64,000 nucleotides of DNA from an uncultured virus (IMG/VR IMGVR_UViG_2925597055_000005) (taxonomy: Duplodnaviria > Heunggongvirae > Uroviricota > Caudoviricetes): positions 1 through 64,000 of the IMG/VR virus record IMGVR_UViG_2925597055_000005, one strand, 5' to 3'. The first letter of the stretch is position 1, and every line of letters begins with the position of its first letter. A program made the translations under genes and the position numbers. Below the pieces are notes generated by a model. That model did no database searches and was not told the origin of the DNA. It saw only the letters and a program-made list of their open reading frames with translations. Positions 248 through 56,636 of this stretch are shown in pieces.

Positions 248-266
248 AAAGCCGGAGGTGTTCGGC

Positions 267-602
267 ATGACTAGCGATAACAAACTGTGGGCTTCGAGTT
301 TTATCTTGCCGGAATTACGTGAAGGCTTTCAGCGATTGGCTGAGGCGAAGCTTAAAGTAGAGAAGCCGCAACTGGACGCGCAGCAGATCGAGGATATGGA
401 AGTGACGGTCGCGCAATCGATGGAAGTAGGCGCAGATTTGTCATTCGAGCTTTACGATGACGGATACATACGCGAAGTAATCGGCGCAGTCCATTACGTG
501 GACCACATACGGAAGGAATTTCGTGTGAAGGACGTACGAGGCGATACTAATTTCGTGAAGTTTGCGGATATCATAAACGTAAAAAATGCCCCATCCGGTT
601 AA
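267..602 (+). CDS. YolD-like family protein
   Basis: RBS GGAGGTG then ATG at 267; NKLW...ILPELRE and KPQLD motifs; SOS box upstream. Confidence 0.75.
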   Translation: MTSDNKLWASSFILPELREGFQRLAEAKLKVEKPQLDAQQIEDMEVTVAQSMEVGADLSFELYDDGYIREVIGAVHYVDHIRKEFRVKDVRGDTNFVKFADIINVKNAPSG

Positions 603-619
603 GGACAGGGCTGTTTTCG

Positions 620-925
620 TTAGCCGACGTTTTTTACCCAGTCGACCGCTATATTCTGTTTACATCGGCGGCAGCTATCGTTAAACTTTCCACTTGTTAC
701 GAAGTTTTTATCGTGTCCGCAGTTCGGGCAGGAATACCGTGCGCCTCCTAACGCGATTGCGAAAAACGGAAGACTGAAGAAGGCGAGTCCTAAACCCGGA
801 AGAATTCCGATAATTGTGAGACATAAAAGCGCCGAAATCAACATAATAAATGAGCCAACGCACAAACTGATAATCCTACCGAATCCGAACTTTTTCTTCG
901 CCACAGTCACCGTTTTATATTCCAC
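620..925 (-). CDS. Small membrane protein with C-terminal Cys4 zinc ribbon (moron-like)
   Basis: Two hydrophobic helices, CPNC and CRRC; own candidate promoter at 960-989. Confidence 0.65.
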   Translation of the reverse strand: MEYKTVTVAKKKFGFGRIISLCVGSFIMLISALLCLTIIGILPGLGLAFFSLPFFAIALGGARYSCPNCGHDKNFVTSGKFNDSCRRCKQNIAVDWVKNVG

Positions 926-3007: not shown

Positions 3008-4591
3008 TTACCATAATGGGATACCGATATTAAAGGACACACGCGTAACACTTGCCGAGTCGGTTGCTGAAAAACCATCGAATCTCAAATCGCCGTCAAT
3101 CGTAAAGGCAAAGCGCGCAGTCCCGTAAGATCCGATCGTTGGTACGACAAAGTCCACGGTCTGCGTCGGCTTATAAGTGAATTTGGCAACCGAAGTACCT
3201 GCAGCCGGTAGTGACCCGAATGTACCACGCAGTTTAATTTCGTTATTCGCAACGGAAAACTTGAACGGATAGCTGGCGTTTTGTTGCGCGCCGTTAATCA
3301 AAGTAACGTTATTCCACGTCGCGACCCACGGACTATTCCACTTATCTTTATCCGCCTGTACGACGTGAATGTCCGTTCTGTTGGCGTGGGCATCCACCTT
3401 TGATTGCGCCCCTTCTACCGATTCAAGCTCGCGCCACGACGTCCATGAATCCGAACTCGCGACCTTATTACGCATAAACTTTCGTCGGCCTGACGACGTT
3501 GAGTCGCTGCTGCTATAGGACGTATATTCCTGATAAGCATACGTGCTGTAGTTATTAACGATAAGATAGCCGTTGTTATTTACCGGGGCGTTTAATGCCG
3601 TCGTTGCGCCGCTCATATAATAGAAGCCGGTATCTGTAACCGCATTAAAATCGATGTCTGTCATGTACTGTGCCGCGCCAGTATCCTGCGTCAATTTAAA
3701 CAACTGCGATCCATTCCACTTTTCCTTCTCAACTTTTGATGTGTGGCGTTCTCCGTTGTTGTCGTGTTGGCGAAACGCATAGTAGTCGGCCTGTCTAACA
3801 TTTTCGACGTTACTAAGTCCGATCTGATCCTTTGTCACTGAGTGCGGATTATCAGTCCGGCCTGCGTGTGTGTCCGTGTACGCTTTGCTGTCCGTTAAGG
3901 CCTTGTCGGCTTTTGTCTGCGCACCATCCGGCGTCTCCTGCTTCACATTCTCAACGTTTCCCAAACCGATTTGCGATTTCGTTACGCCATGCGGATTGTC
4001 TGTTCTTTTCGTATGTGTATCCGTATACGATTTCGCATTCTTTTCCGCAGCATCCGCTTTTGCTTGCGCTCCCTCTTTCGTTTCAATATTTTCAAGGTCT
4101 TCGAATTTCTTGCGCAGCTCTTCGACTGTTTCGACCACTTCGTCGTATAAGTCGTTGATTTGTTGGCGCAACGCTTCGAAGTCATCAACGTAGTATTCCG
4201 CCAACGGTACGATATCCGTATCAATCAGCGCCTTGTCGATGGCGAACGAAAACTTATGGATGGAAAGCGCCTGTTTATTCGCGTAATACAGATAAAGTTC
4301 CGCCTGCACATCGCCGCTGTGTCGGATCTCTTCGGCTGATAGAACGTACTGCGCAACCCCTTCGACTTTATCCGTGATCTCTACGCTTCTTATGAACCGG
4401 CTGCCATCCGCCATAAACATGACGAGCTTCCCCGTAACAGCAGACAACGGCAATGGGACGTCATCCTTTGTTAGCGAGAAGATTAAACGTGCAGTATCGA
4501 TGTCTTGCGTGCTGAACTGTATTGCAGTTTTAATATTCGTTTTTGTCCGGCTCGTCACTTCAAACGCAAGTGGCGCGTTATTATATATCAC
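3008..4591 (-). CDS. BppU-family baseplate upper / tail fibre protein
   Basis: N-terminal FSTQDIDTARLIFSL; two DNPHxVTKxQIGLxNVENV repeats; knob-like C-terminus. Confidence 0.75.
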   Translation of the reverse strand: MIYNNAPLAFEVTSRTKTNIKTAIQFSTQDIDTARLIFSLTKDDVPLPLSAVTGKLVMFMADGSRFIRSVEITDKVEGVAQYVLSAEEIRHSGDVQAELYLYYANKQALSIHKFSFAIDKALIDTDIVPLAEYYVDDFEALRQQINDLYDEVVETVEELRKKFEDLENIETKEGAQAKADAAEKNAKSYTDTHTKRTDNPHGVTKSQIGLGNVENVKQETPDGAQTKADKALTDSKAYTDTHAGRTDNPHSVTKDQIGLSNVENVRQADYYAFRQHDNNGERHTSKVEKEKWNGSQLFKLTQDTGAAQYMTDIDFNAVTDTGFYYMSGATTALNAPVNNNGYLIVNNYSTYAYQEYTSYSSSDSTSSGRRKFMRNKVASSDSWTSWRELESVEGAQSKVDAHANRTDIHVVQADKDKWNSPWVATWNNVTLINGAQQNASYPFKFSVANNEIKLRGTFGSLPAAGTSVAKFTYKPTQTVDFVVPTIGSYGTARFAFTIDGDLRFDGFSATDSASVTRVSFNIGIPLW

Positions 4592-26482: not shown

Positions 26483-27280
26483 ATGATTAATGATCCACGA
26501 AAACTGAATAGGGCGATTAAAGAACGAAACGGAGGCGCAGCCCCACCGACCAAAGCAAAGCTGCACCGTCCGAATCGAACGAAGCATTTCCAGTATATCA
26601 CAGCGTTTATTCTATGCGCAATATTATCCGCATTCACTTCAGTCACCGTGCAAGCCACCGATGTTTACCGCAACTTTGCCGAACTCCAAGCCAACGAACC
26701 CGAGACGAACTACAATATATTCGCGACCGACCACGCCACGCCCGTTTTGATACTCGCGCCGCACGGCGGCAGTATTGAAGGCGGAACTAGCGAATTATCC
26801 CGCGAACTCAGCAACGACTATTCTACGTATCTATTCGAATCACTCAAGACCTCCAACGGATTCGACCTTCACATCACGAGTACCCATTTCGACGAGCCAA
26901 CCGCGCTAGATATGACCGCCCGACACCAACGCGTTATATCGCTTCACGGATACAGCGACAGCACCGAGCACATTATCGTAGGCGGTACCGACCCTGTTCG
27001 CGGCCAGACGCTAGTAAATCGCTTGAACGCTGCCGGCTTTAGTGCCGAACTCGTAGGCGCAGGACATCGATTCGCAGGCGCGAGTAGCGCGAACATAGCG
27101 AATAAGTGCATGACCGGCGAAAGCCTACAGATCGAGCTCAGTACCGGTTTGCGTAAAAGCATGTTCGGTAAGTTCTCGCTAAAAGGGCGCGCCGGAACCG
27201 AAACCGCGACGTTCTACAAGTTTACCGGGTTGCTGTCGGAGTTCATTAACGAAAACTATAACGTTGGAGGTAACGAATAA
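26483..27280 (+). CDS. Poly-gamma-glutamate hydrolase (PghP/DUF867 family), signal-peptide-like N-terminus
   Basis: DVYRNFAEL, APHGGSIEGGTSE, LHITSTHFDEP, ISLHG, QIELS. Confidence 0.9.
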   Translation: MINDPRKLNRAIKERNGGAAPPTKAKLHRPNRTKHFQYITAFILCAILSAFTSVTVQATDVYRNFAELQANEPETNYNIFATDHATPVLILAPHGGSIEGGTSELSRELSNDYSTYLFESLKTSNGFDLHITSTHFDEPTALDMTARHQRVISLHGYSDSTEHIIVGGTDPVRGQTLVNRLNAAGFSAELVGAGHRFAGASSANIANKCMTGESLQIELSTGLRKSMFGKFSLKGRAGTETATFYKFTGLLSEFINENYNVGGNE

Positions 27281-29043
27281 TGATGCGATATACGTTGGAA
27301 GCTGAAAAGTACGATGTACGTTGGGACGGGACTGAGGCGGCTATGACTACGCAAGGAATTAATCGCGCAATACACGAGGCGGCTGAGGCCGGTTATTCTG
27401 AAGTGGAAATCCCTAAGGGAAAATACCTTATCGACGCGGTAAACCGTATTGCAGTTAAACCGGAAGAAGGCGCCGGGATACGTGTACCATCGTACATGAC
27501 CTTAATATTACATCCGAAAGCAGAATTTATTGTAGAACCAAACAGTTCCTACGGATATTCCTGCATTTATCTTGGAGAGGTCGTGGACGTAACGATAAAA
27601 GGCGGCAAGATACGCGGCGAACGTTACCAGCACGACTTTACCGGGCACGGCAATCTAAAAAAGAAGGAAACCCATGAATGGGGCTACGGCATAAACGTAC
27701 ATGGTGCCAAAGATGTCGTGATTGAAGGTGTTGATATTGCGGAGTGCACAGGCGATTGTATTATGGTAAACGCGCAAGGCATGTTAAATGTACCTTGGAC
27801 GACTTACCGACCTGCCCGCAACGTTACGATTGAGCGTTGTAAATTAGACGGTGCTCGTCGAAACAATATATCGGTCACTGGCGGCGAAGATGTAAAGATC
27901 GATAAAAACGTAATAACCAACGCAGGTATAAACGATGGCTGCAAGCCTATGTTCGGCATTGATATCGAAGGTTACGGAGAAGGCAATATCGATTACGAAG
28001 AGCCTCGCAATGTGAGGATAACGAATAATACGTTCAAAGGAAATATATTGCAGTCCGTTTGTAATTTCAGCGGATACGAGGTCGTTATTTCCGGAAACTA
28101 TTCGGATAACTCGATCTCTTACGGATTCGGAACCGACACCACTATCTCGAATAATACGTTAGTACGCACGGACAAGAAATATACCGCAATTACGAGCCTC
28201 GGCGTGTCGGCTGGCTTTACCGGAAATAACACGACGATCATCGGAAATACGATAAAAGGCTTCAGCAGTGGTATTGACGTTCGCGGAGCAGACGTTTCAG
28301 TATCCGGCAATACTATTTCGGAGCTTAGCGATGACGGCACCGCATTAGCTACCTTCGAAGCCAAGAACGTTAAGTTTTCGGATAACATCGTAAACCATTG
28401 TCCGGGTAAATTATGTAGCGCGCGTAACTCAAAAGACATAACGTTCGAAGGTAACGATCTCCACGATTCGGATATTACTGCGATAGAGATTGCCGATTCC
28501 ATTAACGTTAAAGCGAAGTCGAATGATATTAAACGCAGTAAGCAAGGCGTCGTTGTTACGCGGTCTTCAGCGAAACTGATAGATAACGACATTGATCTTA
28601 CCGACTATTCTGGCGCAACAGGATACGCGATATCTTTCGATAAGGGAAGCGACGTGGATATCGAATACAGCCGTATACCAAAACCGGCAAACATGGCTAT
28701 TTACGGAGAAAGCGCTGAAGGTAGAACCGTTCGCATTAAGGATAACGATATCACTGACGCGAAATGTTTGATACCGATTTACGTCGTCGGTGGTAAAAAA
28801 CCTGAAATATCCGGAAATGACATAACGTTTAATCGGAAGGCTTCGGGCGGTTACGGAATTCAAACGAAAAACACCGACGGTGCCTTAGTAAAGGAAAACG
28901 TTGTGTATTCGGCCAACTCATTCGCGTTGTACAATCCGATTAAGACTTCTGAGTCTGTGAATTCGCGAGTCATCGGAAATAAGGTATCCGGCACCCTATC
29001 GCTCAACGAAACCGATATAGAAACGAATAATATTTCAATTTAA
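27280..29043 (+). CDS. Right-handed parallel beta-helix (pectin lyase-like) protein
   Basis: IPKGKYLID, HEWGYGI, RRNNISV, GIDIE, Asn-ladder repeats. Confidence 0.8.
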   Translation: MMRYTLEAEKYDVRWDGTEAAMTTQGINRAIHEAAEAGYSEVEIPKGKYLIDAVNRIAVKPEEGAGIRVPSYMTLILHPKAEFIVEPNSSYGYSCIYLGEVVDVTIKGGKIRGERYQHDFTGHGNLKKKETHEWGYGINVHGAKDVVIEGVDIAECTGDCIMVNAQGMLNVPWTTYRPARNVTIERCKLDGARRNNISVTGGEDVKIDKNVITNAGINDGCKPMFGIDIEGYGEGNIDYEEPRNVRITNNTFKGNILQSVCNFSGYEVVISGNYSDNSISYGFGTDTTISNNTLVRTDKKYTAITSLGVSAGFTGNNTTIIGNTIKGFSSGIDVRGADVSVSGNTISELSDDGTALATFEAKNVKFSDNIVNHCPGKLCSARNSKDITFEGNDLHDSDITAIEIADSINVKAKSNDIKRSKQGVVVTRSSAKLIDNDIDLTDYSGATGYAISFDKGSDVDIEYSRIPKPANMAIYGESAEGRTVRIKDNDITDAKCLIPIYVVGGKKPEISGNDITFNRKASGGYGIQTKNTDGALVKENVVYSANSFALYNPIKTSESVNSRVIGNKVSGTLSLNETDIETNNISI

Positions 29044-32526: not shown

Positions 32527-32688
32527 ATGGACGAAAAACAATACGCTCGCATTGCGCTTACAAACGGGCAGATTGCGCGCTTTGAATTACCTACGAATCT
32601 AAACAGCCGAGACATAGCTATCTTAAAATCGCAGATCGAAGTTCTTGAATTACAAACGGAAGATGACGAAGAAAAGACGCCCGCATAA
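32527..32688 (+). CDS. 53-aa hypothetical protein
   Basis: RBS AAGGAG; MDEKQYARIALTNGQIARFELPTNL... Confidence 0.5.
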   Translation: MDEKQYARIALTNGQIARFELPTNLNSRDIAILKSQIEVLELQTEDDEEKTPA

Positions 32689-32700
32689 GGCGTCCTTTTT
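32672..32700. terminator. Bidirectional intrinsic terminator
   Basis: AAAA-GACGCC-loop-GGCGTC-CTTTTT between convergent genes. Confidence 0.7.
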
Positions 32701-32704
32701 CGTT

Positions 32705-32788
32705 TTATGCTCCGCGTGATGCGCTTTCCGCTGGACCTGCGCCCCTGATAATGCTTTCTAGCGGACTAGCTCCTCGTGGCATTCCCAT
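32705..32788 (-). CDS. 27-aa concatemer of three arbitrium-type hexapeptides (GMPRGA, SIIRGA, SASRGA), no signal peptide
   Basis: RBS GGAGGTGA, ATG at 32788, MGMPRGASPLESIIRGAGPAESASRGA*, terminator directly downstream. Confidence 0.85.
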   Translation of the reverse strand: MGMPRGASPLESIIRGAGPAESASRGA

Positions 32789-32812
32789 TCGCCTCACCTC
32801 CGATATAGTAAA

Positions 32813-32842
32813 ATTATACCTTTTTAACGTTGAACAGCGCAA
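32813..32842 (-). promoter_or_regulatory. Candidate SigA promoter for the poly-arbitrium gene
   Basis: TTGCGC-N18-TATAAT followed by TTTACTA, same layout as the promoter at 960-989. Confidence 0.5.
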
Positions 32843-33614
32843 TCAACGTTTTGTCCGGTGTCTTTGATTGTCGATAGAATACGTTAGGATTAAACGTGTA
32901 GCGCTCCGGCTCGCTTCCGACTTTAATTCGCGCAACAACGTATTCGCCGTCGAATTTCATCTGCTTCAGGCGCCGGCCGAGCGTATCTGAAGTAACGCCG
33001 ATCGCCGCCGCAAGTTCCTTCTTATTGAACCAGCGGATGCGCTTCGGATTCTTTTCGAAAGGATTTGCGCACAGAGCATTTGTTTCGTAATGAATGAACG
33101 GCAGCATACGGTAGATCAGACCGATGTCAGTCGCCTTCACTTCGCTGTACACACGTTTGATCTTCGCGCTGTATAGCTTAACGACTTGCTGACTACCGAA
33201 ATTACCTTTGAAGTGGTAGCGGTCATTTACACTGTAGCGGCCGTTCTCTTCCCGGATGATGTCGTGCTCGGTACAGGCGGAGAGGAAGTCGTAAAAGGAC
33301 CGAGGTTTTTTACCGAGCTGCAAAACGTCCATCATGTCCGCAGTGGTCATCGGCGTTTTGTTGCGGCTAGACTTGATAAGGACACCGTTGTAATCGACGT
33401 AGCATTGAAGCAGCATCAGGTAGCCGCACTGTGCCGTCGTAAGAGCGTCATAGACTTCGTGAATATTAGACATATTGGCGTTTGAGAAATCGCGCCGATC
33501 GGCTGTTTTTTCTTGCTTCTGACGAAAGGCTGCGTCTTGGTTGCGGTGCCGCAGCGTGTACATTTCCGACCAGTCTTCGCCTGTCTCCGTATTAATAACT
33601 CGTAATCTCTTCAT
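32814..33614 (-). CDS. Rep/RepL-like winged-helix DNA-binding protein
   Basis: Two HTH-like halves; INTETGE start; YTFNPNVFY near the C-terminus. Confidence 0.5.
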   Translation of the reverse strand: MKRLRVINTETGEDWSEMYTLRHRNQDAAFRQKQEKTADRRDFSNANMSNIHEVYDALTTAQCGYLMLLQCYVDYNGVLIKSSRNKTPMTTADMMDVLQLGKKPRSFYDFLSACTEHDIIREENGRYSVNDRYHFKGNFGSQQVVKLYSAKIKRVYSEVKATDIGLIYRMLPFIHYETNALCANPFEKNPKRIRWFNKKELAAAIGVTSDTLGRRLKQMKFDGEYVVARIKVGSEPERYTFNPNVFYRQSKTPDKTLIALFNVKKV

Positions 33615-33667
33615 TATACCGTCTCCTTTTCACAAAAATAAAAGAGCGCTGAACGGGCGCCCTCACA

Positions 33668-33702: not shown

Positions 33703-34190
33703 TAGTGATAAACTTTTTCGCCGGTTGCGATATTTACGGTGAACTGGCCGTTAGACTTTCCGTTAACAAACGCCGAATAACGTTTCCTTCGCTCTTCATT
33801 CCGTGCCTTGGCGCGCTTATCTAGTAATTTATTTTCGTAGGAAGAGCGTGGCCTGCGGATCGGCCGGCCTTTATAGGAGCCGGTTTGGTCGTATTCCTCC
33901 GCCAATTTATCCGAAGCTTCACGTTTGTATCGCTCTTCGAACTGGGTTTCGCTCATGATCGGGTACTCTTCACGCGTCACCTTATCCGGATGCGCGTCGG
34001 AAAGCTCTTCGTAGAGTACGAGATTAGCCATTCGTTCAAGTGCTGATAGCTCCGGGTGCTCACCGGTAGAGTCGTAGTAAGCGTCTGACAGGGCCGTTAT
34101 TTCCTCAATACGTTCCTTCCGCGTCATATCGCCAGCCTTAGTGCGTGTGTACATTTCCGTAATTGTTTCGTGCAAAATCGTTTTATCCAT
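33702..34190 (-). CDS. Hypothetical protein coupled to the sigma region 4 gene
   Basis: ATG at 34190 overlaps the upstream stop; helical. Confidence 0.6.
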   Translation of the reverse strand: MDKTILHETITEMYTRTKAGDMTRKERIEEITALSDAYYDSTGEHPELSALERMANLVLYEELSDAHPDKVTREEYPIMSETQFEERYKREASDKLAEEYDQTGSYKGRPIRRPRSSYENKLLDKRAKARNEERRKRYSAFVNGKSNGQFTVNIATGEKVYH

Positions 34191-34573
34191 CAATCCGTCC
34201 CCCCTGTCGTGTATCCTTCGCCATGACTGGCCCAATAGTAATAAATGTCCGCAAGCTTTTCAGCAGACAAAGTTAGGTTAAAATCGACACCTTGCTGCGT
34301 TATGCCCATCCGTTCTCCCGCCTCGGCCTGCGTTAATTCTCCGAAGTAAACGAGCTCGATCGCCTGTCGTTGCCGATCCGTTAAGCCGGCGAGCTCGATC
34401 GCCTTGTGTATGTCGATTAGTACTTCCACGGCCGCATAGTCGCCGCAACGCTTCCGGCTGACGAACTTCTGGTAATCGGCGAGTAGCAACTTGACGCCCT
34501 CTGCGTCGTCGAGCGCATATGCGGCGTTAAACTCACGGTCCTTTCGGTGGAGATCGACTTTTACCGTTCCCAT
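34190..34573 (-). CDS. Sigma-70 region 4-type HTH regulator
   Basis: LTDRQRQAIELVYFGELTQAEAGERMGITQQGV. Confidence 0.8.
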   Translation of the reverse strand: MGTVKVDLHRKDREFNAAYALDDAEGVKLLLADYQKFVSRKRCGDYAAVEVLIDIHKAIELAGLTDRQRQAIELVYFGELTQAEAGERMGITQQGVDFNLTLSAEKLADIYYYWASHGEGYTTGGTD

Positions 34574-55339: not shown

Positions 55340-55471
55340 CTAAGCGCCAACCCGAATGTCGGCTACCTTATATCCTCCTTCGGTGCTAGCTTGATTCTGT
55401 GTATCATATTTAAATGCAAATCCTGCTGCCGCCATCACTACGATTAAAGTGGCTAATAATATCTTTTTCAA
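55340..55471 (-). CDS. aimP: Arbitrium pre-pro-peptide AimP, predicted mature signal DIRVGA
   Basis: RBS AAAGGAG, TTG; MKKILLATLIVVMAAAGFAFKYDTQNQASTEGGYKVADIRVGA, signal peptide plus VA before the terminal hexapeptide; overlaps the aimR end. Confidence 0.85.
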   Translation of the reverse strand: MKKILLATLIVVMAAAGFAFKYDTQNQASTEGGYKVADIRVGA

Positions 55472-56636
55472 TTAAAACCTCTCCTTTAATTAATTTTTTG
55501 AATTTTAGGAATGGTCTAAGCGCTCGTGAGTCAGCTCCTGCTTTCTCAAGCTCTTTCGCTACTAACCTAGCAAAAAAGAAGTTTTCTTGACAGAAAAAAG
55601 ACTCTAGGCAATTATACATTACATCTATTGACTTTTCCGCTGTGTTTTCGAAAAATATTATAAAATTGTCTTTATCGCCCCTCTCTAATATCGTATGTAA
55701 CTTCGCTAAAGAAATTTTCCCATTTCTCGCTTTCTGATATGCTCTCAGTCTGAAGTTAGAGTCTTCATCAAGCTCGACACCATGAAAGACTTTAGCGAAA
55801 TCTAAATTAAACTTTGCCTCTTGGATATACTGCAAATCGCCCACTTCACGCATTAACTCGTAACTTTTCCGGAGATTATACAAACAGACATTTTTATCAT
55901 CCGGTAAGTACGACATCCCTATAACATAATATGCATCAGATTTCTTTTTCGCGGATATATTTGCATTAATAATGGATTCAGCAAAATCCCGAGCAGATTT
56001 TACATCATTAAGTTGCAAACTAATAGGCGCCAATAATTCACAGACCCTGAACGTTAAGCATTCTTTATAAAAGGTTTCTCGCGGCCCTAGGTTTGTTATA
56101 TCCTTCTGGATTTCCGAGACTTCATTTATTATTTTTTGTATGTCACCTTCAAAATAGTTGTTATACTGTCGAATGATATTCATTAAGATCAAAAGTGGTT
56201 TACTTGTTATATTGTGGAGTCTTCCAATTGCATCCTTCAGTTCAAAACCACTCAACGTTCCTACCATATAGTTATAAACAATACGGTACACTTCCACCGT
56301 CTGTTTAAGCACTCCGTCAGTATTTTGATGAAGTAGTAATAATCTTTTTAAAAGGGGAGCGTTTGTAGTAATTGCGGAGTATTCAAATGAGTTTTTTATT
56401 GTTTCTGTCCGGGTGATGTGCAAACACCATTCTGACAAAATTTCCTGGCTTCCCTTTCCTGTTTCTCTTGAAATCAGTTGAGCAAATTTAATAAGTTTCT
56501 TGAAACTTATTTTACCTTTCTTGAAAAAATCCCTATATGCACTTTCACTCATTCCAACAAACTCCATAACATCCGTCTTTTTTATGGCATCGTGGTCTTC
56601 AATAAAATCATGCACCATTTTTGTGATGTATTCCAA
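55410..56636 (-). CDS. aimR: AimR family arbitrium receptor (HTH plus TPR-like helices)
   Basis: 408 aa; N-terminal HTH, NSFEYS, all-helical, C-terminal ENFFFARL; followed by a secreted peptide gene. Confidence 0.85.
   Translation of the reverse strand: MEYITKMVHDFIEDHDAIKKTDVMEFVGMSESAYRDFFKKGKISFKKLIKFAQLISRETGKGSQEILSEWCLHITRTETIKNSFEYSAITTNAPLLKRLLLLHQNTDGVLKQTVEVYRIVYNYMVGTLSGFELKDAIGRLHNITSKPLLILMNIIRQYNNYFEGDIQKIINEVSEIQKDITNLGPRETFYKECLTFRVCELLAPISLQLNDVKSARDFAESIINANISAKKKSDAYYVIGMSYLPDDKNVCLYNLRKSYELMREVGDLQYIQEAKFNLDFAKVFHGVELDEDSNFRLRAYQKARNGKISLAKLHTILERGDKDNFIIFFENTAEKSIDVMYNCLESFFCQENFFFARLVAKELEKAGADSRALRPFLKFKKLIKGEVLIEKDIISHFNRSDGGSRICI

What the first reader, a model, noticed from the sequence alone, without database searches (positions are those of the whole stretch)
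32705..32788. Hidden 27-aa gene encoding three tandem foreign arbitrium peptides (GMPRGA, SIIRGA, SASRGA): candidate multivalent signal mimic against SPbeta-like phages
Seen: a minus-strand ORF too short for the ORF track, with RBS GGAGGTGA, a candidate SigA promoter (32813-32842) and a terminator (32672-32700). It reads M-GMPRGA-SPLE-SIIRGA-GPAE-SASRGA-stop: three xxxRGA hexapeptides at exact 10-residue spacing, joined by [S/G]-P-x-E linkers. The RGA units use different codons (CGA GGA GCT, AGG GGC GCA, CGC GGA GCA), so this is a protein-level pattern rather than a recent DNA repeat. There is no signal peptide and no adjacent aimR. Established: GMPRGA is the SPbeta arbitrium peptide, SAIRGA is that of phi3T, and peptide binding inactivates AimR and favours lysogeny. 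I recall SIIRGA and SASRGA as natural SPbeta-group signals, which needs checking. This phage's own predicted signal is unrelated (DIRVGA). Inference: the phage makes a polyprotein of competitor signals. It is either processed in the cell (Met removal exposes GMPRGA; SASRGA has the free C-terminus) or released at lysis and cut outside. It would inactivate several SPbeta-family AimRs, blocking induction of a co-resident prophage or pushing incoming phages into lysogeny.
Basis: partly seen in the sequence, partly recalled or inferred. Interest (0 to 1): 0.97.

Follow-up and report, generated by a model that had tools for sequence, protein, structure and literature searches.

The report
Leaderless gene stringing rival phages' signals
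A tiny unannotated prophage gene encodes, back to back, three communication peptides that other Bacillus phages use, and related prophages carry the same gene with reshuffled peptide sets, which suggests that one virus forges its rivals' signals.

Summary
Window 32705-32788 (-) reads M-GMPRGA-SPLE-SIIRGA-GPAE-SASRGA-stop. It has a strong RBS, a -10 box and a hairpin terminator.

All three units are catalogued clade-2 arbitrium signals. The phage's own AimR/AimP lies 22 kb away and its signal is DIRVGA.

The gene is natural and recurrent:
- It sits at the same position in 18 of 56 related IMG/VR loci and 2 of 10 GTDB loci, and in two further records.
- There are 14 distinct peptide versions in the B. 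subtilis-type form.
- Eight of the nine distinct xxxRGA/VGA units exactly match catalogued signals.
- Start, Gly2, final codons and terminator are conserved, while the interior is a divergence hotspot (81.7% identity against 92-94% in the flanks).
- Synonymous change exceeds non-synonymous change.
- No phage carries its own signal in it (17 of 17).
- B. licheniformis-group prophages carry licheniformis-group signals (GFTVGA, GFPRGA).

My best reading (confidence 0.6) is a leaderless, receptor-less, multivalent mimic of rival phages' lysogeny signals. Translation, processing and any effect on AimR are untested. I found no description of such a gene in seven literature searches.

The parts
32705..32788 (-). 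27-codon leaderless ORF: M-GMPRGA-SPLE-SIIRGA-GPAE-SASRGA-stop
   Evidence: Homologous ORFs at the same position in relatives.
32768..32785 (-). Unit 1, GMPRGA. This is the SPbeta signal. It directly follows Met1, so removal of the initiator Met would expose its native N-terminus.
   Evidence: Catalogued in 32 of 281 clade-2 systems. ATGGG is invariant in 14 of 14 aligned loci.
32756..32767 (-). Linker SPLE, ending in Glu just before the next unit
   Evidence: Relatives have SPLE, NPLE or SSLE here.
32738..32755 (-). Unit 2, SIIRGA. This slot is the most variable in relatives: SIIRGA, SAIRGA, SASRGA or GIVRGA.
   Evidence: Catalogued in 17 of 281 systems.
32726..32737 (-). Linker GPAE
32708..32725 (-). 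Unit 3, SASRGA. It ends at the stop codon, so it has a free C-terminus as a native AimP does.
   Evidence: Catalogued in 42 of 281 systems. The last codons CGCGGAGCATAA are conserved in 13 of 14 aligned loci; L019 has AGA in place of CGC.
32794..32801 (-). Ribosome-binding site GGAGGTGA. Five nt separate its last base from the ATG, and 8 nt separate the GGAGG core from the ATG.
   Evidence: CGGAGGTGA is invariant in alignment A1.
32813..32842 (-). Promoter-like stretch: TTGCGC (weak -35), 18-nt spacer, TATAAT (perfect -10, overlapping the stop of the upstream gene)
   Evidence: Read. Not listed by the consensus scan. TATAAT is present in all 14 aligned ORF-bearing loci. It is absent from most of the ORF-less relatives printed, which have ...CCGTAG or ...CTGTAG there.
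32672..32700 (-). Intrinsic terminator shared with the convergent ligase gene
   Evidence: -19.9 kcal/mol, z = -3.4. Compensatory change GGACGCC/GGCGTCT versus GGGCGCC/GGCGCCT between types A and B.
32814..33614 (-). Upstream 266-aa gene (phrog_9501, function unknown), used as the synteny anchor for the small ORF
55410..56636 (-). The phage's own arbitrium receptor, AimR
   Evidence: PF22871, E = 3.2e-26.
55340..55471 (-). The phage's own AimP propeptide, with a signal peptide and the C-terminal signal DIRVGA

Best explanation
The ORF is a real accessory gene of a roughly 65-kb temperate Bacillus siphovirus, and selection acts on its peptide sequence. It encodes a short cytoplasmic polypeptide without a secretion signal. 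The polypeptide is a string of the mature arbitrium hexapeptides of other phages (SPbeta-like, clade-2 systems), joined by 0-8-residue linkers.

Proposed mechanism:
1. The gene is transcribed from its own weak promoter and/or with the upstream gene, and is translated from a strong RBS.
2. Met aminopeptidase exposes Gly1 of the first unit, and the stop codon gives the last unit its native free C-terminus.
3. Endoproteolytic cuts after the Ala of each ..GA and after the Glu or Tyr that ends each linker release free hexapeptides. This happens either inside the producing cell, or outside it after lysis through the secreted Bacillus proteases, followed by Opp uptake.
4. The hexapeptides bind the AimR receptors of rival phages, switch off their aimX, and push those rivals into or keep them in lysogeny. 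An incoming phage lysogenises instead of killing the lysogen, or a co-resident prophage is kept from inducing.

Shown here: the sequence, its conservation and its pattern of variation. Shown in the literature: the activity of the free peptides on non-cognate AimRs. Inferred: steps 1-4 for this gene.
For: 1. Exact signal matches. The window's three units are all catalogued signals. Across relatives, 8 of 9 distinct RGA/VGA units are catalogued (GMPRGA, SIIRGA, SAIRGA, SASRGA, SPSRGA, GIVRGA, GFTVGA, GFPRGA). Together these are the signals of 151 of 281 clade-2 systems.

2. Recurrence at one genomic slot.
- 18 of 56 IMG/VR loci and 2 of 10 GTDB loci anchored on the upstream gene carry a multi-unit ORF there.
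- One more IMG/VR record (L100) and one metagenome contig (L090) also carry it.
- Two protein-database entries, P0002 and P0003, belong to it.

3. Selection on the peptide.
- ATG-GGx, the RBS, the last codons and the terminator are conserved, and indels are in frame and unit-sized.
- The same peptide is encoded by several synonymous DNA versions: GMPRGA 4, SASRGA 4, SAIRGA 4, SPSRGA 3, SIIRGA 2.
- pS is 0.27-0.45 against pN 0.06-0.15 in 6 of 6 equal-length pairs.
- Non-synonymous changes in the middle slot convert one catalogued signal into another.

4. Divergence hotspot. Over 66 pairs of 12 type A loci, mean identity is 81.7% in the ORF, 93.9% in the 82 nt upstream and 92.3% in the 35 nt downstream. 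The combinations of units are mosaic.

5. Foreign, not self. The phage's own AimP signal is never in its own ORF, in 17 of 17 records where both were read. The own signals are DIRVGA, EIKVGG, ELRPGG, INAIGG, ANQLGG, AIKVGG, DIRPGG and DPIPGG.

6. The repertoire tracks the host group.
- The GFTVGA+GFPRGA form occurs in prophages of B. paralicheniformis KJ-16 and B. glycinifermentans GO-13.
- All 5 GFPRGA rows and the first 20 GFTVGA rows of the published table are B. licheniformis-group strains, apart from one unclassified Bacillus sp..
- GO-13 itself holds a clade-2 AimR whose AimP ends in GFPRGA.

7. Literature.
- Free SIIRGA and SASRGA act on the non-cognate phi3T AimR, raise lysogeny and lower induction, and the emitter gains (passages and Discussion of 10.1101/2025.10.13.681967).
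- Crosstalk among clade-2 peptides is reported in PMC13220667 (abstract and passages).
- A phage Phr propeptide with the layout 6-aa unit, 4-aa linker, 6-aa unit is matured by secreted B. subtilis proteases (PMC11343458).
Against: - There is no evidence of translation, processing or activity for this gene.
- AimR grips both the free N-terminal amine and the free C-terminal carboxylate of the hexapeptide (PMC6458997). The uncut polypeptide should therefore not bind in the canonical way, and four cuts are needed.
- The linkers (..E|..Y|) do not copy the native pro-AimP cleavage context ([V/I]A|). No protease has been identified.
- The commonest clade-2 signal, GFGRGA (56 of 281), appears in none of the 23 multi-unit loci.
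- GPVRGA is not catalogued.
- The first-slot units EIKPGA, EIRPGA, ELNPGA and EIKLGA, and the xxKPGG units of the B. pumilus-group form, match none of the 10 natural signals I read in this phage family. Two IMG/VR pattern scans for natural A-EIKPGA-stop and A-ELKPGG-stop gave 0 hits and 1 spurious hit.
- Co-residence is not a rule. Three records or genomes hold a clade-2 locus beside the small-ORF phage. Only one of them (GO-13) has that signal in the ORF. G003 has GFGRGA, and the record of L100 has SAIRGA with a disrupted AimR.
- None of the 17 IMG/VR records with a natural ..VA-GMPRGA-stop shares a taxon id with the 12 type A isolate records.
- Most relatives lack the multi-unit ORF (38 of 56 IMG/VR loci).
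- The -35 element is poor.
Confidence: 0.6

Rival explanations
1. The gene is real, translated and selected, but has another target. The polypeptide or its fragments might act as antagonists or partial agonists of sibling-phage or own AimR. They might act as a decoy substrate that ties up the proteases or the Opp permease needed to mature and import rivals' signals. They might act on host RRNPP receptors or host physiology.
For: - The first-slot units (GEIKPGA, GEIRPGA, GELNPGA, GEIKLGA) and the B. pumilus-group forms (..DPKPGG....ELKPGG) are 1-2 substitutions from natural signals of this phage family (EIKVGA, ELRPGG, DPIPGG) but never identical to them. That pattern fits analogues rather than copies.
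- Most type C forms carry a C-terminal SASK tail, so their hexapeptide is internal.
- A 2026 preprint reports that SAIRGA alters B. subtilis colony development. I saw only its search listing and the start of its abstract.
Against: - The RGA/VGA units are exact copies of natural agonist signals (8 of 9).
- Their repertoire follows the host group.
- Agonist activity of these free peptides on non-cognate AimRs is published.
Confidence: 0.22
2. The stretch is a non-functional relic. Fragments of aimP 3' ends were captured by recombination into an intergenic spacer and are not translated.
For: - The ORF is accessory; most relatives lack it.
- It lies at a convergent-gene junction where insertions are tolerated.
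- Gene callers almost never call it: a search of 5.8 billion proteins returned 2 entries.
Against: - The RBS at ideal spacing, ATG-Gly and the stop position are invariant.
- All indels are in frame, and no frame is broken in 23 of 23 multi-unit loci.
- pN is below pS in 6 of 6 pairs.
- The native [V/I]A pre-cleavage context of aimP genes is absent, so the units are not simple copies of aimP 3' ends.
Confidence: 0.07
3. The feature is an artefact: an assembly chimera, a synthetic insert, or a chance ORF over an RNA element or terminator leader.
For: The layout looks designed (RBS, three units, regular spacing, terminator).
Against: - The family is found in independent IMG/VR isolate and metagenome records, GTDB genomes, an NCBI/ENA/Logan protein cluster seen on 6 contigs, and Logan contigs listed from 10 studies.
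- The versions differ naturally between records.
- There is no Rfam match.
- No downstream gene on that strand could be regulated by a leader.
Confidence: 0.01

Closest known systems
AimP, the arbitrium propeptide of SPbeta-like and other Bacillus phages
   Same: The product contains the same mature hexapeptides (GMPRGA, SIIRGA, SASRGA and others). The last unit ends at the stop codon, as in AimP.
   Different: - It has no Sec signal peptide.
- It is not next to an aimR.
- It holds three (2-4 in relatives) different signals instead of one.
- None of them is the phage's own signal.
- The residues before each unit are E or Y, not the native [V/I]A.
Tandemly duplicated Phr pheromone propeptides of phages phi3T and phi105 (PMC11343458; abstract and passages read)
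   Same: Several pheromone units lie in one precursor. In phi105 the layout is a 6-aa unit, a 4-aa linker and a 6-aa unit, the same 10-residue period. Secreted B. subtilis proteases mature the units, and the immature forms bind poorly.
   Different: Those precursors are secreted, lie beside their cognate Rap receptor, and carry duplicates that serve that one receptor. Here there is no leader and no receptor, and each unit is the cognate signal of a different foreign receptor.
Arbitrium crosstalk between complete systems (10.1101/2025.10.13.681967; PMC13220667)
   Same: The outcome is the same: one phage's peptide drives another phage's AimR towards lysogeny, to the emitter's benefit. The peptides involved are the same.
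   Different: In those studies the crosstalk is a by-product of each phage's own AimR-AimP pair. Here a separate gene appears dedicated to foreign signals and is unlinked from the phage's own, unrelated signal.
Leaderless communication peptides (LCP/SIP with RopB; PMC10518010, abstract read)
   Same: A short RRNPP-type signalling peptide is encoded without a secretion leader.
   Different: LCPs are single hydrophobic peptides encoded beside their own receptor and used for self-signalling. They carry no tandem foreign units.
Laboratory expression of a mature Phr pentapeptide inside B. subtilis
   Same: A leaderless mini-gene for a mature RRNPP peptide can act on its cytoplasmic receptor without export and import.
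   Different: That was an engineered construct with one cognate peptide. It is cited from memory only.

Membership tests
AimP (arbitrium propeptide) | C-terminal mature hexapeptide of the xxxxGA/GG type | tested here: met
   SASRGA lies at the C-terminus, and all three units are catalogued signals.
AimP (arbitrium propeptide) | N-terminal signal peptide for secretion | tested here: not met
   The product has 27 residues and starts M-G directly with unit 1, with no hydrophobic stretch. Native AimPs in the same records start MKK followed by a hydrophobic segment.
AimP (arbitrium propeptide) | Encoded immediately downstream of its cognate aimR | tested here: not met
   The nearest AimR is at 55410-56636, 22.6 kb away, and has its own AimP ending in DIRVGA.
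AimP (arbitrium propeptide) | The peptide binds and inactivates the cognate AimR of the same phage | not testable with these tools
   The phage's own signal is absent from the ORF in 17 of 17 records.
Tandem-pheromone propeptides (Phr of phi3T and phi105) | Two or more pheromone units in one precursor, separated by short linkers | tested here: met
   The window has three units with 4-aa linkers; relatives have 2-4 units. The layout was compared with PMC11343458.
Tandem-pheromone propeptides (Phr of phi3T and phi105) | Secreted precursor beside its cognate receptor gene | tested here: not met
   There is no leader and no Rap or AimR gene adjacent.
Leaderless communication peptides (LCP) | Leaderless short ORF | tested here: met
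Leaderless communication peptides (LCP) | Adjacent RopB/Rgg-type receptor, with the peptide active without processing | tested here: not met
   No receptor gene is adjacent. AimR needs both free termini of a hexapeptide, so processing is required.
Intrinsic-terminator-bounded independent small gene (moron-like cassette) | Own RBS, -10 element and terminator, present or absent as a unit between relatives | tested here: met
   The -35 element is weak.

The most novel reading that the evidence does not exclude
This is a hypervariable 'signal-forgery cassette'. A temperate phage makes a string of its rivals' arbitrium peptides inside the cell, without a secretion leader and without any receptor of its own for them. 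The lysogen, or the infected cell and its lysate, then holds the lysogeny signal of several SPbeta-like phages at once. Superinfecting rivals are forced into lysogeny, or co-resident ones are kept silent. This would be a private, immunity-like benefit to the carrier. The units are swapped and edited in an arms race that tracks the local repertoire of signals. It would be the first dedicated gene for forging another virus's communication signal.
Probability: 0.5. Interest if true: 0.95.

Novelty: categorically new. Interest (0 to 1): 0.92.

Why it matters
Arbitrium is the model for communication between viruses. Work from 2025-2026 showed that phages can be misled by each other's peptides, and it predicted antagonistic co-evolution between emitters and receivers. 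That crosstalk has so far been treated as a side effect of each phage's own signal.

A separate gene that carries only foreign signals would change this picture:
- It holds several signals at once, has no leader and no receptor, and evolves faster than its flanks.
- It would show that signal forgery is itself a selected trait.
- It would give a natural, easily testable example of viral 'jamming' of a rival's decision circuit.
- It would explain part of the pressure that diversifies AimR-AimP pairs.

There are practical consequences too. Gene callers miss the ORF, so censuses of communication systems overlook it. The cassettes also give a natural readout of which signals matter in a given host group. 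A 27-codon gene that switches several temperate phages towards lysogeny could be a useful tool in Bacillus strains.

Tried and rejected
**Searches for the ORF elsewhere**
- An exact 51-nt ORF pattern in IMG/VR gave 0 matches. Records of or near the window's own genome may be left out.
- tblastn of the 27-mer against INPHARED phages gave no match. A blastn of the region found 3 B. subtilis phages that lack the ORF.
- The pattern RBS + M-G-x-x-R-G-A across 91 Bacillaceae species genomes gave 1 hit, an unrelated MGRHSGALGTIEKR. The form is therefore rare in species representatives.

**Catalogue of natural signals in this phage family**
- A profile search with 9 AimRs failed because the alignment was too divergent.
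- One pattern was rejected for having too few plain bases and was rewritten. A-EIKPGA-stop gave 0 hits and A-ELKPGG-stop gave 1 spurious hit.

**Co-residence with clade-2 phages**
- The clade-2 AimR alignment found only 10 IMG/VR loci, which was not informative.
- The scan for natural GMPRGA found 17 records, none from the type A isolates.

**Host of the window**
- A DNA search with the end of a relative's record against 49 Bacillus genomes reached at most 75% identity, with no assignment.
- The only hint is that the second AimP in record G003 is identical to 3 of 3 B. velezensis rows in sheet 1 of the published table.

**Expression**
- Contigs from two RNA libraries of one study (X15, X16) come from a relative, each contig 87-96% identical, with a 3-nt insertion in unit 1. 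They span the ORF at depth 56 and 91. Neighbouring contigs over about 33.6-34.3 kb have depth 3.5-5.
- Contigs cannot show strand, ends or level, and DNA carry-over is possible, so this is only a weak hint.

**Other steps**
I used arithmetic instead.
- Rfam gave no family.
- This scan's earlier findings gave nothing.

Full report
**What is there**

On the minus strand, window 32705-32788 reads MGMPRGASPLESIIRGAGPAESASRGA-stop.
- GGAGGTGA lies just upstream, with 8 nt between its GGAGG core and the ATG.
- A perfect TATAAT overlaps the stop codon of the upstream 266-aa gene. The only usable -35 is a weak TTGCGC at 18 nt, and the consensus scan did not list this promoter.
- A hairpin terminator follows the ORF (-19.9 kcal/mol, z = -3.4).
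- No Rfam family matches.

The window is an IMG/VR provirus record of 66.7 kb. It is a siphovirus with terminase, portal, capsid, tail, lysis, integrase, a replication and nucleotide-metabolism module and its own sigma factor. Its own arbitrium pair is at 55.3-56.6 kb, and its AimP has a signal peptide and ends in DIRVGA. The small ORF has no leader and no receptor nearby.

**The units are authentic foreign signals**

Table S2 of PMC13220667 (supplement read) lists 26 proposed mature peptides for 281 clade-2 systems. SASRGA accounts for 42, GMPRGA for 32 and SIIRGA for 17.

Passages of 10.1101/2025.10.13.681967 report three things:
- Synthetic SIIRGA and SASRGA act on the non-cognate phi3T AimR.
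- They raise lysogeny.
- They lower prophage excision.

By my arithmetic, about 0.05 catalogue hits are expected in the six-frame translation of the whole window. Three lie within 27 residues.

**The gene recurs and varies by units**

I anchored on the upstream gene (phrog_9501, unknown function). This gave 56 related IMG/VR loci and 10 GTDB loci. A scan of all of them found a multi-unit ORF at the same position in 18 of 56 and 2 of 10. Pattern scans added one IMG/VR record (L100) and one metagenome contig (L090). A protein search added two entries.

Type A versions, each starting with M:

| Source | Units and linkers |
|---|---|
| window | GMPRGA-SPLE-SIIRGA-GPAE-SASRGA |
| L004 | GMPRGA-SPLE-SIIRGA-GPVRGA |
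| L005 | GEIKPGA-NPLE-SAIRGA-SPSRGA |
| L006, L007, L090 | GMPRGA-NPLE-SAIRGA-GPAE-SASRGA |
| L008 | GEIKPGA-NPLE-SIIRGA-GPAE-SASRGA |
| L009 | GMPRGA-NPLE-SAIRGA-SPSRGA |
| L010 | GMPRGA-SSLE-SASRGA-SPSRGA |
| L011 | GEIRPGA-SPLE-SASRGA-SPSRGA |
| L012, P0002 | GELNPGA-GPQLY-GMPRGA-SPLE-SIIRGA-GPAE-SASRGA |
| L018 | GEIKPGA-NPLE-SA-SPSRGA |
| L019 | GMPRGA-SPLE-GIVRGA |
| L053 | GEIKLGA-NPLE-SAIRGA-GPAE-SASRGA |
| L100 | GELNPGA-GPQLY-GMPRGA-SPLE-GIVRGA |
| P0003 | GMPRGA-SPLE-SASRGA-GPVRGA |

Type B occurs at 8 loci and has one sequence: M-GFTVGA-KELPKPKY-GFPRGA.

Of the nine distinct RGA/VGA units, eight are catalogued. GPVRGA is not.

**Signs of selection on the peptide**

In the 14-locus alignment:
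- The RBS, ATG-GGx and the terminator are conserved. The final codons CGCGGAGCATAA are shared by 13 of 14 loci; L019 has AGA in place of CGC.
- The terminator stem shows a compensatory change between types A and B.
- The interior carries in-frame, unit-sized indels.

Other measures point the same way:
- Identical peptides are encoded by several synonymous versions.
- In the six equal-length pairs, pS is 0.27-0.45 and pN is 0.06-0.15.
- Over 66 pairs of type A loci, identity is 81.7% in the ORF, 93.9% upstream and 92.3% downstream.

So the ORF is a divergence hotspot between conserved flanks. Relatives without the ORF go from the stop codon of the upstream gene straight into the terminator.

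**Foreign, and matched to the host group**

Where both could be read, the phage's own signal is never in its own small ORF. This holds for 12 of 12 type A and B records and 5 of 5 type C records. For GO-13 the own AimR is on another short contig, so assigning it to the same prophage is an inference.

Type B occurs in prophages of B. paralicheniformis KJ-16 and B. glycinifermentans GO-13. In the published table:
- All 5 GFPRGA rows and the first 20 GFTVGA rows are B. licheniformis-group strains, apart from one unclassified Bacillus sp..
- The first 10 rows each of GMPRGA and SASRGA are mostly B. subtilis-group strains or SPbeta-type phages.
- 8 of the first 10 SIIRGA rows are B. velezensis or B. 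amyloliquefaciens.

GO-13 itself carries a clade-2 AimR whose AimP ends in GFPRGA.

**A wider family (type C)**

In B. pumilus-group relatives the same slot, with a homologous RBS, holds a single-unit leaderless ORF:
- MIKAITKSGELKPGG (L062, B. stratosphericus).
- MIKAITK-x-(DPKPGG, VPKPGG, EVKPGG, ERKPGG or DPKPGS)-SASK. This form made up 7 of the 12 pattern matches; the other 5 were unrelated.

These units, and the first-slot GE(I/L)xPGA units of type A, resemble signals of this phage family (ELRPGG, DPIPGG, EIKVGA). They are not identical to any of the 10 natural signals I read.

**How it probably works**

AimR holds both the free amine and the free carboxylate of the hexapeptide (PMC6458997, passage read). 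The polypeptide must therefore be cut.

Three features fit a precursor:
- Gly2 is invariant. By the general rule for Met aminopeptidase, Met removal would expose the native N-terminus of GMPRGA or GFTVGA.
- The last unit always ends at the stop codon.
- Every linker ends in Glu or Tyr just before the next unit.

The phi105 Phr precursor has the same layout of a 6-aa unit, a 4-aa linker and a 6-aa unit. Secreted B. subtilis proteases mature it, and its immature forms bind poorly (PMC11343458). Without a leader, this product stays in the cytoplasm until lysis. It then acts either in the producing cell or after release. I cannot tell which.

The Discussion of the Manley preprint states the benefit directly: a prophage that pushes a superinfecting phage into lysogeny lowers its own risk of death.

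**What argues against, or is missing**
- There are no translation, processing or activity data.
- GFGRGA, the commonest clade-2 signal, is never present.
- The linkers differ from the native [V/I]A cleavage context.
- Co-resident clade-2 signals match the ORF in only 1 of 3 cases.
- None of the 17 natural GMPRGA records shares a taxon id with the type A isolates.
- Most relatives lack the ORF.
- RNA-library contigs of one study cover the ORF in a relative, but they cannot prove transcription.

**Novelty**

Seven full-text searches found crosstalk between complete systems, tandem Phr propeptides and leaderless RopB peptides. They found no gene of this kind, and none of the peptide strings is in print in the held library. 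Subscription-only papers are not covered. Only 2 entries among 5.8 billion predicted proteins correspond to the family, and both are unnamed.

**Verdict**

The gene is natural, recurrent and under selection for its peptide content. Its most likely role is a multivalent mimic of rival phages' lysogeny signals (confidence 0.6), with the biochemical steps still to be shown.

Noticed in passing
L062 about 3800-3900; L135, L136, L140-L144 (150-nt flanks): Single-unit leaderless ORFs sit in the same slot in B. pumilus-group relatives. They read MIKAITK-x-(DPKPGG, VPKPGG, EVKPGG or ERKPGG)-SASK, or end in ..GELKPGG. The SASK tail looks homologous to the SASRGA end of type A, which hints at how the cassette grew or decayed.
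   Followed up: partly
L146 (record of L100), about 3-6 kb from its small ORF: A clade-2 arbitrium locus has an intact AimP ending in ..VASAIRGA. Its AimR match contains stop codons and lies beside a 372-aa transposase-like ORF. A disrupted phi3T-type system therefore sits next to a small-ORF phage.
   Followed up: partly
L071 (record G003, 66.6-70.5 kb): The 95.5-kb record that holds L006 also carries a second, clade-2 AimR with an AimP ending in GFGRGA. This AimP is identical to B. velezensis entries in the published table, and its signal is not in that record's small ORF.
   Followed up: partly
window 26483-29043 (+): A poly-gamma-glutamate hydrolase gene is followed by a 587-aa right-handed beta-helix protein, in the block that converges on the small ORF. 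This is probably a capsule-degrading pair.
   Followed up: no
window 34190-34573 (-): A phage-encoded sigma-70 family factor (region 4; PHROG 'sigma factor') lies two genes upstream of the small ORF. Its promoters may drive the operon, so a SigA-consensus scan may miss the relevant promoter.
   Followed up: no
window 33642-33664 (-): A terminator-like hairpin lies between the 177-aa gene and the 266-aa gene. The 266-aa gene and the small ORF may therefore form their own transcription unit. Depth in RNA-library contigs of a relative changes near here.
   Followed up: partly
IMG/VR contig names of L020/L029 and of L027/L032: Two related prophages of this family occur in the same isolate genome. 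In one pair one prophage has the small ORF and one lacks it; in the other pair both have it. Sibling phages therefore do meet in one cell.
   Followed up: no
window 258-925: A YolD-like gene and an IS91-type zinc-binding transposase fragment lie at the left end of the record, next to the lysis genes.
   Followed up: no
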